Position numbers and translations under genes: made by a program
Shown: positions 25,219-35,583 of the stretch, in pieces
How positions within the stretch are numbered: position 1 is the stretch's first letter
Layout of the letters: each line of letters starts with the position of its first letter
From: Escherichia coli
GTDB taxonomy: Bacteria; Pseudomonadota; Gammaproteobacteria; Enterobacterales; Enterobacteriaceae
Assembly (NCBI RefSeq): GCF_044324875.1
Contig: NZ_CP172185.1
Length of the DNA stretch: 64,000 nt
Direction: 5' to 3' (one strand)
Notes under the pieces: model-generated
What the model was told of the DNA's origin: nothing
What the model saw: the letters and a program-made list of their open reading frames with translations, nothing else
Database searches by the model: none

Positions 25219-25242
25219 TTAACTACACCATTAACTACACCG
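25219..25242 (+). repeat. Left att-type direct repeat (TTAACTACACCATTAACTACACCG)
   Basis: 24-bp repeat matching 35560..35583 with one mismatch; brackets the integrase-containing island. Confidence 0.7.
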
Positions 25243-26067
25243 CTTCACGAACAATATCGAACAACCGCGAACAAAGATCAACACGCTTTAATCATTATCA
25301 TTTTCCGGCTATCCGTCATGAAGCTGGTGGATGATCTGCGTGGTGATTTCCACCATTCAGAGCAGGGGCGGTCATCATGACCATGCCATAACAAAAACCC
25401 CATATTCGTGGTTTTTCTGTGTCGGGGCTATTCTGCTGTTGCCGTGCTGGTGGATATTCTCCGGTATGCGGCTCCCCATATCGGCATCAGGCCCACCAGC
25501 GTGAAGCGTTTTTCATTTTTCGCGGGTATAAAAAATCGATGGGGCGGGCAGTCCTGAAGACGTCAGGGTACAGAGATTTGACCCGCCCCTCCCTGTGAAT
25601 GAGCACAATAAGTAACCGAAGGCGGAATTCCGCCCTCGGTACTTACATATGAGAAACGATATTTCTTCCACCGATACCCTTTATTTGGGTATCGCGAGTA
25701 AGCCCCAAAATCTGGGTGTTACTCTTACTACCCAAACTACGGGTAGTTTCCGTAGTTTCATGGTCGAGTTGCAAATCTGCAACTCACCCACCAGCCAGCG
25801 CAATGTCGCATTATCAGTCCTCAGATGTGAGGGATGTAGCCAGCTTTTCCCCCAGTGGGGATTATCCAGTTACCGACGGTTTAACCGCCTGTGCCAGCAC
25901 AACGAAAGAATTTGCGGGTAGCTTTAAACTACTCACAACATCCCATCTTACAGGCCGTGCCTTTCTAACTTTTTACAATGCAATAAGTCAGGTAACGCTA
26001 TGCGTTCCACCGTGTACACCGCGCCAGTAAAACCCCCGGATTCGTGGTTTTCCTGAATATCAGGAAT

Positions 26068-26442
26068 CTACCGCCGCAACCGTTCCGGCTTCTTCCACTG
26101 ATAAGTGTTTTTCGCGCTCTCCCTCCGTTGTTGAGAACGGCGACGGTATGCCAGCAACTCAAGGACTCTGGTTCGTATGTTGCGCATATCCACGCCGTTA
26201 AGCTCAATACCATCACGGCGCATCACCTCAGCAACAACACACGCGTAATTTTCGGCTATCACGCTGTCCGGCTGCGTGGCCTCCTGTTCGCCAGCCTGCT
26301 GGCTGATTCCGGTAATACTGCGGATTATCCCGATCGCTTCGGTCTCGGTCATGGTCATGTCCTCCATAGTGATGGCGGGTCCTCCTTGTGGGGTGCCCTG
26401 CCACGGGGCGGGAGCATCGCGGAAAAAGGCTAGTTTTTGCAT
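26068..26442 (-). CDS. Hypothetical protein (124 aa), island cargo downstream of small terminase
   Basis: ORF with no family I can assign; the true start may be an internal Met. Confidence 0.4.
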   Translation of the reverse strand: MQKLAFFRDAPAPWQGTPQGGPAITMEDMTMTETEAIGIIRSITGISQQAGEQEATQPDSVIAENYACVVAEVMRRDGIELNGVDMRNIRTRVLELLAYRRRSQQRRESAKNTYQWKKPERLRR

Positions 26443-26603
26443 TTTTATTCGTTATCACCACCAATGCAATATATTGATATGACTTGATGTTTTATTTTTC
26501 GGTGTCGATTTCGATTGTTTTTTGTTCATCACTGACGCATAACGCCCACCAGCGCAACGCTGAAAGCCAGTCAGTAAACTGGCTTCGGTCATTGTGCACT
26601 ACG

Positions 26604-27188
26604 TTACTTGTCTTTATCCGGCTGAAACTTATCAGGCACATTTCCGGTAGTTTCCATCAGATAATCGGACAGCATTCGCGGGATGTTTTCATCAAGTTTT
26701 GTGCATGCGTTACAGGCTCTGACAACTTCTTTTTTCAGGCCATCCAGCATGGCGGGGGTCATCTGTGGGAAGCTCCTTTGCATAGTAAGCGGGAGGCTGT
26801 CCATGATTGATGAAATCTGTCTCGCCAGTTTTGAAAGCGCGTACATGCAAAACTCTGTATCAATCACGTCACCGCGATCGCGCTCGTTTTTAAGTTCCTG
26901 CGCATCTGCCTGTGCTTTTGTGAGACGGTAGCGTTCGTAATCAATCGTACCGGGCTGCAGATCCGACTCAGCAGCCACGCGCATATCGTCGACTTCCTTA
27001 CGAAGTTTTTCATTTTCAATGTCGGCCTCACGCTGAGCGAACCACTCAATCGCTTTTCCCGTATCAAAAATCGCTTCATTCCCTTTCCCGCCGCCTGATA
27101 TCAGCGGCAGCCCCTGATTTTGCCAGGTGGATATAGTCCGCACATCAACATCAAAAATCTCAGCCAGCTTTTTCTTGTTAACCCTCAC
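26604..27188 (-). CDS. Nu1-like terminase small subunit (TerS / Rpp-type packaging-redirection protein)
   Basis: MRVNKKKLAEIFDVDVRTISTWQNQGLPLISGGGKGNEAIFD... closely parallels lambda Nu1 N-terminus (MEVNKKQLADIFGAS...GGGKGNEV); a cosN-like site lies just upstream. Confidence 0.75.
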   Translation of the reverse strand: MRVNKKKLAEIFDVDVRTISTWQNQGLPLISGGGKGNEAIFDTGKAIEWFAQREADIENEKLRKEVDDMRVAAESDLQPGTIDYERYRLTKAQADAQELKNERDRGDVIDTEFCMYALSKLARQISSIMDSLPLTMQRSFPQMTPAMLDGLKKEVVRACNACTKLDENIPRMLSDYLMETTGNVPDKFQPDKDK

Positions 27189-27376
27189 ACCAGCATCCCC
27201 TCCAGCAAGAAAATGACCCGTTTTTTTAAGAAAGGATCTTAAAACTGCCTTTTCAGGCGAAACGAAGCCTTATCAGATCCTTTCTCAGAACAAATAAAAT
27301 TCAATATACACAATGACTTACAAAAAAGAAGAACGGATCTGAATTTCCCGTAAAAATTTCATAAGGAGTTGTTTTG

Positions 27377-27393
27377 CGCGAGGTCGCCGCCCC
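27377..27393 (-). promoter_or_regulatory. Lambda-type cosN (GGGCGGCGACCT cohesive-end sequence, on minus strand)
   Basis: Minus strand reads GGGGCGGCGACCTCGCG, matching the lambda left cohesive end; positioned ~190 bp upstream of the Nu1-like gene as in lambda. Confidence 0.7.
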
Positions 27394-33529: not shown

Positions 33530-33667
33530 CAATCCACCAGCAAGCCACCACACTGGACACATTGCCCACCAGCCAGCAAATCGCTATGATGTTCGGGCTT
33601 ATGTTTAGTGTTTTCCCATTGGCGACCGCCCCCGGTCGCCTTTGTTTTATGTGTCATATACTCCCCT

Positions 33668-33877
33668 TTACGCTGCCTTGCCTGAATTAATGCGATCCCG
33701 GCTTTTAACCCATTCCATAACCTCGGACAGCAGCCAACCTACAGAACGCCCACCAAGATTACGGCGAGACGGAAAGCTCCCTTTTTTCTCCAGTTCGTAG
33801 CGTGTAGTGCGACACACTCCAGTTAACTTACGACATTCATCCTCACGGATTACGCGATCTTCATTTATTTCACGCAT
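33668..33877 (-). CDS. alpA: AlpA/Vis-family phage transcriptional regulator (69 aa)
   Basis: MREINEDRVIREDECRKLTGVCRTTRYELEKKGSFPSRRNLGGRSVGWLLSEVMEWV matches the AlpA (P4 Vis-like) HTH family; the track ORF is extended upstream. Confidence 0.7.
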   Translation of the reverse strand: MREINEDRVIREDECRKLTGVCRTTRYELEKKGSFPSRRNLGGRSVGWLLSEVMEWVKSRDRINSGKAA

Positions 33878-34296
33878 ACAAAAACCTACATAAAAATTAC
33901 GTATATAAACTTTTCTCTTAGCTGTAGATATATGAGATCGGATATTACTTAGATTCTTTTTCACCTCTTAAATTAAAAACACAACCATGCTAAAGGCTTT
34001 GTTCGCTAAGGTTCGTAGAAGCTCGTTAGTGTTTAAAATCGTGTCACGAGTTTTTAAGCGACGCAACAAAAAATGTCGTCATTTGGCATGTCACCTGAAT
34101 TACCTCATTAAAAACAAATAGATAAACCATCAGATGTTGGAACAATCAAGAAACAGAGAATAAGAACTCAGAAGAAGACATTTCAATTTTTTTCGATAGT
34201 TGACACATATAAAGAGAAGATATTTGCAGATATTCCCCGATATTCTAAGATCTATTCACGGCTGTAATCTCTTAAAGAAAAAACAGCCGTAATTTG

Positions 34297-35535
34297 TCAA
34301 GAATTTTGGGGGTAAATTCGCGGGGTCATAACAACGATTTTTTCATCATTGTTCTGGAGAAGCTCGAGACGGTCTACCCATAGATTAAGAGCGTCACGCT
34401 TTGCATCGAGATAACGGGAGTGGTTATAGACGCGTTGCATTCCTGGCATCTGGTGGGCAGTAAGCTGTTCGACAATATGCGGATCCACGCCTAAATCGTT
34501 CAGCATGGTTGTAAATGTGTGCCGGATGTCGTGCAACGACCAGGGGGCTTGATTAATGCGTCTGTGTGCCGTTCTTCCGTACTCTGCTACGGATGATTGC
34601 CCTTTCAGTTCTCCAAGCAATAAGCCCGTGTGCCTGTTCTGCTCCACCAGCTTCATGACGAACGGCAAGATCGCTTCCGGTATTGGCCTGAATATTGCTA
34701 CCTTCGTTTTGCTGTGTTCTTTCGGCACAGTCCAGAGCATTTCTTTAAAATCCCATTCCCGAACCTCGGAGCGTCTTAGCTCAGTGGTACGGCATCCGAA
34801 GACAATCAGAAGGCGAATTAAAGCGCTGTAGTACGGCGGGAAAATTTTTTCATCCAGTGCGCGGAGTAGCTCGCCAAGCTCCTTGTTTGTTAGCACTCGC
34901 TCGCTTATTTCTGCTTTTTTTCCCACATCACCTACGACCATATCATCAAGAACGTTACTGACGGCGTAGCGACGTTTACGGCAGTACTTAAGCGCCTGTT
35001 TGCATACCTGCAACAAAAAGCCGGCTGATACCGGATTACGCTTAGCAAGCTGGTCAAAACAGGCCAGCCAGTGGCGTAGCTCGCATTTATCCAGCGGCAT
35101 AGCACCAATCTGGCTGATTATGTGCTTATTGATACGGCTTTTCAGTGATTCGTGGTCAGTGCGCTTTTCCTTCGCATACGACTCAAGCCAGTAAGTGAGC
35201 GCGTCCTTAACCGTCACGGGGGCTAACGCTTCCTGCACTGTGTGATTAAGCTCATGGCGTGGATTTTTCCCCTCCGCCAGCCAGGCGCGACACTGTGCCG
35301 CTTTTTCCCTGGCTGCTTTCAGGCTCAGATCGGGATAGTTGCCCAGTCTCAGGCGTTCCGGTGATACCTGCCTGCCAGTTCCGGCCCTGTAAGTGAAATA
35401 CCAGGTTAACAGGCCGCTGGTGGAATGTCTTACGCTAAGATTGCCACCGTCATTAAAAAAGGCGTTTTTTGTGGTTGGTGATCCGCTTAATTTTCGTAAA
35501 AGAGTGTCGCTAAGTCTATGAATTGCGCTGCTCAT
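34297..35535 (-). CDS. int: P4-type tyrosine integrase (412 aa)
   Basis: C-terminal catalytic region with HDIRHT and RVYNHSRY motifs; att repeat 25 bp upstream of the start. Confidence 0.85.
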   Translation of the reverse strand: MSSAIHRLSDTLLRKLSGSPTTKNAFFNDGGNLSVRHSTSGLLTWYFTYRAGTGRQVSPERLRLGNYPDLSLKAAREKAAQCRAWLAEGKNPRHELNHTVQEALAPVTVKDALTYWLESYAKEKRTDHESLKSRINKHIISQIGAMPLDKCELRHWLACFDQLAKRNPVSAGFLLQVCKQALKYCRKRRYAVSNVLDDMVVGDVGKKAEISERVLTNKELGELLRALDEKIFPPYYSALIRLLIVFGCRTTELRRSEVREWDFKEMLWTVPKEHSKTKVAIFRPIPEAILPFVMKLVEQNRHTGLLLGELKGQSSVAEYGRTAHRRINQAPWSLHDIRHTFTTMLNDLGVDPHIVEQLTAHQMPGMQRVYNHSRYLDAKRDALNLWVDRLELLQNNDEKIVVMTPRIYPQNS

Positions 35536-35559
35536 GTTTCGCGTTTCCGGTCATCAAAA

Positions 35560-35583
35560 TTAACTACACCATTGACTACACCG
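35560..35583 (+). repeat. Right att-type direct repeat (TTAACTACACCATTGACTACACCG)
   Basis: Matches 25219..25242 with one mismatch. Confidence 0.7.

What the first reader, a model, noticed from the sequence alone, without database searches (positions are those of the whole stretch)
25219..35583. Phage satellite (PICI/P4-like) with cos + Nu1-like TerS inserted between clpS and cspD
A 10.4-kb block bounded by 24-bp direct repeats (one mismatch) carries a P4-type integrase, AlpA, a primase-helicase with a downstream iteron origin, a lambda-type cosN and a Nu1-like small terminase. It has no large terminase, capsid, tail or lysis genes, which is the architecture of a helper-dependent satellite that hijacks cos-packaging lambdoid phages. 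It sits in the divergent clpS/cspD promoter region rather than at a tRNA and carries unusual cargo. It is the most likely home of any undescribed phage-interference or regulatory system in this window.
Basis: partly seen in the sequence, partly recalled or inferred. Interest (0 to 1): 0.85.

Follow-up and report, generated by a model that had tools for sequence, protein, structure and literature searches.

The report
Known-type E. coli phage satellite (PICI)
This is a 10.6-kb phage-inducible chromosomal island of a family already catalogued at the same cspD-clpS site in E. coli, so it is an ordinary find, though its packaging gene and one of its two packaging sites were recently borrowed from a lambda-like prophage.

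Summary
They are a tyrosine integrase with an arm-binding domain, AlpA, a D5/P4-type primase-helicase with an iteron origin, an exact lambda cosN and a Nu1-like TerS. There are no TerL, capsid, tail or lysis genes. The 24-bp repeats are real but lie inside the element and are probably integrase arm sites. Alignment with empty sites puts the junctions at an 18-bp core, ATGATA(G/A)ATAACTATCAT, at 25129-25146 and 35702-35719, so the island is 10,573 bp.

The site and family are published. Fillol-Salom et al. 2018 list EcCIIHE3034 and EcCI18098 at cspD-clpS with core ATGATAGTTAT, and both encode TerS. About 6.7% of complete E. coli genomes carry a related island there.

This copy is a mosaic. It lacks the capsid and decoration genes and carries PerC and a ProQ/FinO protein. 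Its cosN-cosB-terS 5' segment is 98% identical to a lambda-like prophage, which makes TerS chimeric. A second, convergent cos is of mEp460/phi458 type. No known defence system was detected.

Three extra observations came up: a six-fold Chi enrichment, a conserved stop-free frame from alpA to Icd-like, and a rare 700-bp patch.

Verdict: new member of a known kind, modest interest.

The parts
25129..25146 (.). attL core ATGATAGATAACTATCAT. It contains the published 11-nt core ATAACTATCAT at 25136-25146.
   Evidence: Alignment with the empty site L004; repeat D14; coordinates; PMC6092414 Table S1.
25218..25241 (+). Left 24-mer (ATTAACTACACC x2), inside the island. Probable arm-type integrase site (inferred).
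   Evidence: The integrase has an Arm-DNA-bind_3 domain.
25615..25640 (-). Strong hairpin followed by a U-rich tail. Probable terminator of the long leftward operon.
   Evidence: Terminator scan; RNA fold z = -4.8.
26068..26352 (-). Conserved hypothetical protein (phrog_1561), the last gene of the operon.
   Evidence: annotated in the identical island; the exact protein is seen on 733 contigs.
26374..26600 (+). cos2. cosN-like GGGCGGGAGCAT lies at 26406-26417, with flanks about 86% identical to the cos of phages mEp460 and phi458. It faces terS, convergent with cos1.
26604..27188 (-). Chimeric small terminase. Residues 1-100 are phage Nu1 type. Residues 101-194 are PICI type.
27229..27422 (-). 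cos1, with lambda layout: cosQ-like 27410-27422, exact lambda cosN 27381-27392, R3 27330-27340, R2 (inverted) 27275-27285 and R1 27229-27239 (AGATCC(G/T)TTCT). It is followed by terS.
   Evidence: Segment 26887-27430 is 98% identical to the lambda-like prophage L011.
27476..28060 (-). ProQ/FinO-domain protein (accessory gene).
   Evidence: Pfam ProQ, E 1.7e-26; NCBIfam; an identical protein in a second PICI, L013.
28140..28460 (-). PerC-family regulator (accessory gene).
   Evidence: Pfam PerC, E 1.1e-26.
28478..28888 (-). Single-stranded DNA-binding protein.
   Evidence: phrog_44.
28885..29142 (-). Conserved hypothetical protein (phrog_1231).
29190..29415 (.). Replication origin. Ten GGTAGAGGG-like iterons on both strands flank an AT-rich stretch, directly 3' of the primase gene.
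   Evidence: (D8, D15). The layout matches the PICI origin described in PMC6092414.
29429..31177 (-). Primase-helicase (pri-rep).
31174..31473 (-). DUF4222 protein.
31670..33097 (-). 475-codon open frame. It fuses an Icd-like domain (about 32720-32974), a 700-bp patch (32033-32731) and the C-terminal part of a phrog_2512 gene (31670-32032).
32112..32720 (+). Three small same-frame ORFs inside the patch, each with a Shine-Dalgarno sequence (32112-32282, 32334-32450, 32526-32720). ORF2 is 44% identical to a small annotated gene in another PICI at the same site.
33000..33051 (.). Three GTGTT(C/T)AACAC 11-mers in the divergent control region. Probable operators (inferred).
   Evidence: They are conserved in the IHE3034 and H19 islands.
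33101..33529 (+). YlcI/YnfO-family gene (33101-33280) and a 63-aa ORF (33338-33529). They are antisense to a 201-codon ORF (33052-33657; 228 codons stop to stop) that starts with a strong SD and ATG just after the alpA stop.
33668..33877 (-). AlpA regulator.
34297..35535 (-). Tyrosine integrase with an arm-binding domain.
35559..35582 (+). Right 24-mer (ATTAACTACACC ATTGACTACACC), inside the island. Probable arm-type site.
35702..35719 (.). attR core ATGATAAATAACTATCAT.

Best explanation
This is a phage-inducible chromosomal island (PICI) of the E. coli EcCI family. Its own tyrosine integrase inserted it at the published cspD-clpS attachment site.

The working model comes from the studied relative EcCICFT073 and is inferred here, not shown:
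- A helper lambdoid phage switches on alpA.
- AlpA and Int excise the island. The two 24-mers then flank the core in attP as arm sites.
- The primase-helicase replicates the island from the iteron origin into concatemers.
- The helper's large terminase cuts at a cos site and packs the DNA into helper capsids. Four copies (42.3 kb) would fit a lambda-sized head.

Two points are specific to this copy:
- The cosN-cosB-terS 5' segment was replaced by homologous recombination with a lambda-like prophage. The island now has that phage's cosB and a TerS whose DNA-binding and dimerisation half is the phage's, while the C-terminal half is the old PICI type. It can therefore be recognised by that phage's own Nu1. 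Its hybrid TerS may also couple that cosB to a gpA-type large terminase, or interfere with the helper's Nu1.
- A second, convergent cos of mEp460/phi458 type offers a second possible class of helper.

The capsid and decoration genes of its relatives are replaced by PerC and a ProQ/FinO protein.
For: Site and family:
- The empty-site alignment defines the att core.
- The same core, site and size are published for EcCIIHE3034 and EcCI18098 (PMC6092414 Table S1). The text states that both encode TerS.
- The IHE3034 island has the same AlpA protein, a near-identical integrase and the same gene order.

Core parts: Int, AlpA, pri-rep, origin iterons, TerS. No structural or lysis genes are present.

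cos1: exact lambda cosN, a cosQ-like box and three R-like elements, with R3 at positions 53-63 from cosN. Segment 26887-27430 is 98% identical to a prophage carrying nu1-A-W-B.

TerS chimera:
- Residues 1-70 are 55/70 identical to phage PhiR5_1 Nu1, and residues 71-100 are 28/30 identical.
- Residues 101-194 are 92/94 identical to another PICI's TerS, but at most 54% identical to any of 50,697 phage records.

cos2: about 86% identical to the phi458/mEp460 cos.

Spread: 366 of 5,426 genomes have the site occupied. The exact chimeric TerS is seen on 657 contigs, so this variant is not a one-off.
Against: - No experiment. Induction, excision, replication and packaging are all inferred.
- The two published TerS-type islands at this site transferred poorly or not at all after mitomycin C (at most 40 to 110 transductants, PMC6092414 Table 1). 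No helper for them was named in the passages read.
- This copy shows signs of decay or rearrangement. One early gene is annotated as frameshifted. An Icd-like gene and a downstream gene are fused across a 700-bp patch. The capsid module is lost.
- cos1 and cos2 are convergent and 963 bp apart. Which one is used is unknown.
- The mEp460 TerS is unrelated to the island's TerS.
- Whether the PICI-type C-terminal half binds any helper TerL has not been tested.
Confidence: 0.85

Rival explanations
1. It is a decaying, no longer mobilisable remnant of a PICI. The recombination with a prophage and the patch in the early operon are scars, and the island persists only by vertical descent.
For: - An early gene is annotated as frameshifted.
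- An A7 versus A8 run splits the long leader frame that is continuous in relatives.
- The Icd-like and phrog_2512 genes are fused.
- The capsid and decoration genes are absent (compare).
- Only 5 of 5,426 complete genomes hold at least 80% of this island.
- Published relatives at this site transferred poorly.
Against: - int, alpA, pri, the origin, terS and two complete cos sites are intact.
- The exact TerS is on 657 contigs, and the ProQ/FinO and PerC proteins are on about 1,000 each.
- The same patch and the same PerC and ProQ/FinO genes sit in a second PICI with a different integrase at a tRNA-Pro site in strain LH50-c. That shows ongoing exchange between islands.
Confidence: 0.25
2. It is a P4-like satellite that depends on a P2-type helper.
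For: The integrase has the arm-binding domain common in P4-type integrases. AlpA is present. The replicase carries the NCBIfam P4-family primase C-terminal domain. An Icd-like motif is present.
Against: - No Sid, Psu, Delta or Epsilon match appeared in the PHROG, NCBIfam or Pfam scans.
- No RNA family was detected in the island.
- The cos sites are lambda-type and mEp460-type, and the packaging gene is a Nu1 homologue.
- PMC10085698 notes that int, AlpA and a primase alone do not separate P4-like elements from PICIs.
Confidence: 0.03
3. It is a capsid-forming PICI or a deleted lambdoid prophage fragment.
For: Relatives carry major capsid and decoration genes. A 544-bp segment is 98% identical to a lambda-like prophage.
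Against: - No TerL, portal, protease, head-tail adaptor, tail or lysis genes are present.
- The element is bounded by its own att core in conserved chromosome, and empty sites exist elsewhere.
- The prophage-derived piece is limited to 26887-27430.
Confidence: 0.03

Closest known systems
EcCIIHE3034 and EcCI18098 (E. coli PICIs at cspD-clpS; Fillol-Salom et al. 2018, PMC6092414)
   Same: - Same attachment site and core, and about the same size (10.5-10.8 kb).
- The same AlpA protein accession, a near-identical integrase and the same gene order: int, alpA, YlcI (opposite strand), Icd-like, DUF4222, primase, origin, SSB, TerS and a final hypothetical gene.
- Two cos-like sites flank terS.
   Different: - IHE3034 carries major capsid and head decoration genes and a 137-aa hypothetical protein. 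This island has PerC and ProQ/FinO instead.
- The IHE3034 TerS has a different, shorter N-terminal half (19/70 identical) but a related C-terminal half (70/94 identical).
- The cos downstream of terS has lambda cosN in IHE3034 and is mEp460-type here.
- This island has an extra 700-bp patch.
EcCICFT073, the Rpp-type cos PICI (Fillol-Salom et al. 2018 and 2019, PMC6739421)
   Same: AlpA-controlled Gram-negative PICI with a primase plus iteron origin, two cos sites with lambda-like cosQ and cosN, packaging by lambdoid helpers, and PerC-type accessory genes.
   Different: - EcCICFT073 has no TerS. It uses Rpp (144-153 aa), which heterodimerises with the helper TerS and recognises a PICI-specific cosB.
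- This island has a full-length Nu1 homologue of 194 aa (RppC similarity only E 0.008) and a phage-type cosB.
SaPIbov5 and other cos-carrying satellites; SaPI-encoded TerS
   Same: Carrying the helper's own cos so that the helper terminase packages the island, or encoding a satellite TerS that pairs with the helper TerL, are both established satellite strategies. PMC6092414 states this for Gram-positive PICIs. The SaPIbov5 case is described in PMC5052747, of which only the abstract was seen.
   Different: Here both strategies appear together in a lambda-type cos system, and the TerS is a phage/PICI hybrid. No function was tested.
Bacteriophage lambda cos-Nu1 module
   Same: The order cosQ, cosN, cosB (R3, R2, R1), nu1 is the same. 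cosN is identical. R3 is at the same distance from cosN. The first 98 residues match lambda Nu1 at E 1.7e-40.
   Different: The R-element sequence differs (AGATCC(G/T)TTCT versus lambda CGTTTCC-type). No gpA follows. The C-terminal half is only about 42% identical to lambda Nu1.

Membership tests
PICI (five core components of SatelliteFinder, PMC10085698; features listed in PMC6092414) | Integrase | tested here: met
   Pfam Phage_integrase plus Arm-DNA-bind_3; phrog_1.
PICI | Regulator of the AlpA, MerR or Stl type next to int | tested here: met
   Pfam Phage_AlpA, E 4.5e-16.
PICI | Primase-replicase with an iteron origin directly 3' of it | tested here: met
   Ten iterons lie within 29190-29415.
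PICI | Capsid-morphogenesis gene (frequent in proteobacterial PICIs but not universal) | tested here: not met
   No capsid or decoration homologue, although relatives have them. Four of the five core components are present. The passages read of PMC10085698 treat PICI variants that lack the capsid gene as bona fide PICIs.
PICI | Small terminase homologue | tested here: met
   phrog_57, E 7e-65; PDB lambda Nu1, E 1.7e-40.
PICI | No other structural, TerL or lysis genes (the 'forbidden' components) | tested here: met
PICI | Specific attachment site with empty alleles | tested here: met
.
PICI | Helper-phage-dependent induction, packaging and high-frequency transfer | not testable with these tools
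   Needs experiments. Published relatives at this site transferred poorly.
Rpp-type cos PICI (EcCICFT073 type) | Rpp protein (144-153 aa) and a PICI-specific cosB | tested here: not met
   The only wHTH packaging protein is a 194-aa Nu1 homologue. RppC similarity is E 0.008 over 51 residues. The cosB is 98% identical to a prophage.
Capsid-forming PICI (cf-PICI) | TerL, capsid and head-tail adaptor/connector genes | tested here: not met
   None present. The criteria are in PMC10085698.
P4-like satellite | Sid, Psu, Delta or Epsilon, and a P2-type cos | tested here: not met
   No such family hit. The cos sites are lambda-type and mEp460-type. No RNA family hit in the island.

The most novel reading that the evidence does not exclude
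The stretch between alpA and the Icd-like motif may be a translation-dependent leader that gates the replication and packaging operon, rather than a set of unrelated small genes.

In all ten islands of this family examined, at several attachment sites, one operon-strand frame stays essentially stop-free across the stretch between alpA and Icd-like. It has 0 to 2 stops in 163 to 537 codons. In the window it is split in two by an A7 versus A8 run. The other two frames carry 8 to 33 stops.

In the window and in the IHE3034 island, the frame starts with a strong SD and ATG just after the alpA stop. Where it runs through, it ends in the Icd-like motif. It is overlapped by antisense small genes (YlcI/YnfO and others) that all share a single frame.

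By analogy with P1 c4-icd-ant and P4 kil/eta, recalled from memory and not checked here, translation of the leader would prevent premature termination, and the antisense transcripts would shut it off. On this reading, the window's 700-bp patch with its fully open 475-codon frame is a tolerated in-frame swap inside that leader.
Probability: 0.2. Interest if true: 0.6.

Novelty: new member of a known kind. Interest (0 to 1): 0.3.

Why it matters
As a satellite at a catalogued site it adds little. It is another mosaic member of the E. coli PICI family, with the usual accessory regulators. PerC-type genes have been linked to control of the LEE virulence island.

Its one instructive feature is the en-bloc exchange of cosB together with the DNA-binding half of TerS between a lambda-like prophage and a PICI. 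This shows how packaging specificity can be swapped as a matched pair. It also yields a natural hybrid TerS, which could be used to map which half of Nu1-type proteins sets DNA specificity and which half sets choice of large-terminase partner.

The Chi enrichment and the conserved stop-free leader are family-wide properties and could be tested cheaply. If real, they bear on how PICIs survive RecBCD and how they are switched on.

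Tried and rejected
- **Rfam scan of the island** at E up to 1. Only the cspA thermoregulator model matched, over cspD in the flank. No C4, IsrK or P4-type RNA was found.
- **tRNA scan**. None in or next to the island, so it does not target a tRNA.
- **PADLOC** on ten cargo and small proteins. Only two marginal hits (E 0.005-0.008), so no defence system was identified.
- **Homologue searches for the patch.** ORF3 returned nothing. The 233 residues of the minus frame returned only the protein itself and one fragment. 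Pfam on the 485-codon frame returned nothing.
- **Hammerhead idea.** The CUGAUGA...GAAA-like repeats in the patch have no stem II and no Rfam hit, so I dropped it.
- **R-element scan** for lambda-type or PhiR5_1-type R elements. It found none near either cos. The island's own R type (AGATCC(G/T)TTCT) became clear only after the prophage match.
- **Deciding which strand codes in the YlcI region**. The result was inconclusive. Third codon positions coincide in this antisense phase, so both frames look conserved. The YlcI frame scores only slightly better.
- **Shadow-frame explanation for the open 233-codon frame over the patch.** The stop rate in that phase of confident genes is 3% per codon, which gives P(0 stops) of about 9e-4. 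A shadow effect alone is therefore unlikely.
- **Error on my side.** It should be ignored. One search is the clean version, using a real lambda (DE3) cos.

Full report
**Setting.** The window is E. coli chromosome. The island is flanked on the left by clpA (22417-24708, -) and clpS (24724-25044, -). On the right are yljB, cspD and macB (annotation of a 99.9% identical locus in strain TUM1886). None of these is a phage gene, so the block is not part of a larger prophage.

**Checking the observation.** The 24-bp repeats exist at 25218-25241 and 35559-35582 with one mismatch. Each is a tandem pair of the 12-mer ATTAACTACACC. They are not the junctions.
Nearly all matched in two pieces spanning 629 bp instead of 860 bp, so 231 bp of my construct belongs to the island.
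- Aligning an empty site (L004) with both junctions shows the chromosome is interrupted at ATGATAGATAACTATCAT. The left copy is at 25129-25146. The right copy, ATGATAAATAACTATCAT, is at 35702-35719.
- The left copy keeps the chromosomal G at position 7 and the right copy has A. Strand exchange therefore lies in the last 11 bases, ATAACTATCAT.
- In genomes without an island, homology to the right flank begins exactly at 35702.
- The island is therefore 25147-35719, 10,573 bp. In the excised circle the two 24-mers would flank the core. The integrase has an arm-DNA-binding domain. I read the 24-mers as arm-type sites, which is an inference.

**Gene content.** All of the following are on the minus strand unless noted.
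- Integrase 34297-35535.
- AlpA 33668-33877.
- YlcI/YnfO gene and a 63-aa ORF on the plus strand.
- Icd-like motif.
- DUF4222 protein.
- D5/P4-type primase-helicase 29429-31177.
- Ten GGTAGAGGG-like iterons around an AT-rich stretch at 29190-29415.
- A phrog_1231 protein and SSB.
- PerC.
- A ProQ/FinO-domain protein.
- TerS 26604-27188.
- A phrog_1561 protein.
- A strong terminator at 25615-25640.

There is no TerL, portal, capsid, tail or lysis gene. No PADLOC defence model matched beyond two marginal hits.

**It is a known kind at a known site.** Supplementary Table S1 of Fillol-Salom et al. 2018 lists EcCIIHE3034 (NC_017628.1 920272-930825, 10.5 kb) and EcCI18098 with core ATGATAGTTAT, which is the reverse complement of ATAACTATCAT, at cspD-clpS. 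The text says both encode TerS and that they transferred poorly after mitomycin C.
- The IHE3034 island has the same AlpA protein, a near-identical integrase and the same order of genes.
- An int-attR-yljB junction like the window's is present in 366 of 5,426 complete genomes.
- Only 5 genomes hold at least 80% of this particular island.
- Against the five-component definition used by SatelliteFinder (PMC10085698), the island has four components and lacks the capsid gene. It has none of the excluded components.

**Two cos sites and a hybrid TerS.** Downstream of terS, on the plus strand, lies GGGCGGGAGCAT (26406-26417). It is embedded in about 160 bp that is 85-87% identical to the cos region of phages phi458 and mEp460. 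The TerS of those phages is unrelated to the island's.

Upstream of terS, on the minus strand, lies a complete lambda-style cos:
- a cosQ-like box at 27410-27422;
- exact lambda cosN at 27381-27392;
- three R-like elements, AGATCC(G/T)TTCT. R3 is at positions 53-63 from cosN, where lambda R3 sits according to PMC9026076.

The stretch 26887-27430 is 98% identical to a lambda-like prophage that continues with gpA, W and portal genes.

The protein alignment shows the consequence:
- TerS residues 1-100 are of phage type, 55/70 and 28/30 identical to PhiR5_1 Nu1.
- Residues 101-194 are 92/94 identical to the TerS of another PICI, and at most 54% identical to anything in 50,697 phage records.
- Other PICIs at this site share the mEp460-type cos and the C-terminal half, but have the usual short PICI N-terminal half.

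The simplest history is a double crossover in shared sequence. One crossover lay in cosQ-cosN and the other in the conserved AQADAQELKNERD stretch. It replaced the PICI's cosB and DNA-binding half with the phage's matched pair. TerS is not an Rpp, since similarity to RppC is E 0.008. The exact hybrid protein occurs on 657 contigs of a large public collection.

**How it probably works.** The following is by homology with EcCICFT073 (PMC6092414, PMC6739421) and is inferred here.
- The helper induces alpA.
- Int and AlpA excise the island.
- Pri replicates it from the iterons.
- The helper's terminase cuts at cos and fills helper heads. Four copies make 42.3 kb. From memory, that is within the range lambda packages.

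With a phage-identical cosB, the island can be chosen by that phage's own Nu1. The hybrid TerS may add a link to a gpA-type TerL, or disturb the helper's Nu1 through the shared dimerisation half. cos2 suggests mEp460/phi458-type phages as a second possible helper class. None of this was tested. The relatives' poor transfer, a frameshifted early gene and the fused early ORF keep the 'decaying remnant' reading alive at about 0.25.

**The 700-bp patch.** Positions 32033-32731 occur in only 9 complete genomes.
- The patch replaces the last codons of the Icd-like gene and the first codons of a phrog_2512 gene.
- Its minus frame has no stop in 233 codons, against 11-12 stops in the other two minus frames and 10-16 in the plus frames. 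This creates a 475-codon ORF that RefSeq calls 'Icd-like'.
- Its plus strand holds three same-frame small ORFs with good Shine-Dalgarno sequences. One is 44% identical to a small annotated gene in another island at this site.
- No other homologues were found.
- The same patch, the same PerC and the same ProQ/FinO protein sit in a second PICI with a different integrase at tRNA-Pro in strain LH50-c. These modules therefore move between islands.

**A family-wide oddity.** In ten islands examined, one operon-strand frame between alpA and the Icd-like motif has 0-2 stops in 163-537 codons. The other two frames have 8-33 stops.
- In the window the frame is split by an A7 versus A8 run.
- In the window and in the IHE3034 island, it begins with a strong SD and ATG directly after alpA. 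Where it runs through, it ends in the Icd-like motif.
- The antisense small genes within any one island all share one frame.
- I could not decide which strand is translated.

This is the basis of the novel reading given separately.

**Verdict.** It is a new, mosaic member of a described family. Interest 0.3.

Noticed in passing
window 25147-35719, compared with the rest of the window; also L005, L012 and L013: Chi octamers (GCTGGTGG) are strongly enriched in the island. There are 19 in 10.57 kb (9 on the plus strand, 10 on the minus), against 16 in the other 53.4 kb. The Poisson P is about 1e-9. Third-order Markov simulations gave a mean of 1.05 and a maximum of 6. Three related PICIs carry 10-12 each. 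The island has no Gam or Red homologue, so host RecBCD/Chi handling of its linear or concatemeric DNA is a plausible reason. A review (PMC8791490) describes the same dichotomy for lambdoid phages. One search of the held library turned up no paper reporting it for PICIs.
   Followed up: partly
window 32975-33738 and 31670-33127; L002, L003, L005, L009, L012-L016: Across ten islands, one operon-strand frame between alpA and the Icd-like motif is stop-free or nearly so (163-537 codons). It overlaps antisense YlcI/YnfO-type small genes that share a single frame within each island.
   Followed up: partly
L002 (NZ_OZ547164.1), locus 4945-17372: A related PICI (int, HTH, BRO-N, YlcI, Icd-like, primase, SSB, capsid, decoration, TerS) sits inside the portal gene of a lambda-like prophage and splits it into two partial CDS. 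This matches the 'helper-embedded PICI' arrangement described in PMC10111431.
   Followed up: no
L013 (NZ_CP100500.1), locus 1300-12600: A second PICI in strain LH50-c, at tRNA-Pro next to yejM, has a different integrase and a RepA-type helicase. It carries the same 700-bp patch and identical PerC and ProQ/FinO proteins, and has a 595-codon open frame after alpA.
   Followed up: partly
window 25668-25790: This roughly 120-bp non-coding stretch of the island's left arm is conserved at 93-94% in many E. coli genomes, including O157:H7, with no annotation under it. ARAGORN and Rfam find nothing there.
   Followed up: no
window 21809-22203: tRNA-Ser (GGA) lies at 21809-21896, followed by an RtT-like element at 21940-2074 plus 20000 (that is, 21940-22074). 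A single orphan CRISPR-DR4 repeat lies at 22176-22203 (-), just upstream of clpA. In strain 19SZHZ663Rt (L012), a further integrase-bearing element is annotated on the far side of clpA.
   Followed up: no
window 25129-25146: The chromosomal attachment core ATGATAGATAACTATCAT is itself an inverted repeat (ATGATAG/CTATCAT). It lies in the shared clpS / yljB-cspD control region, so insertion moves the clpS upstream region about 10.6 kb away from the cspD side. Any effect on the expression of either gene was not examined.
   Followed up: no
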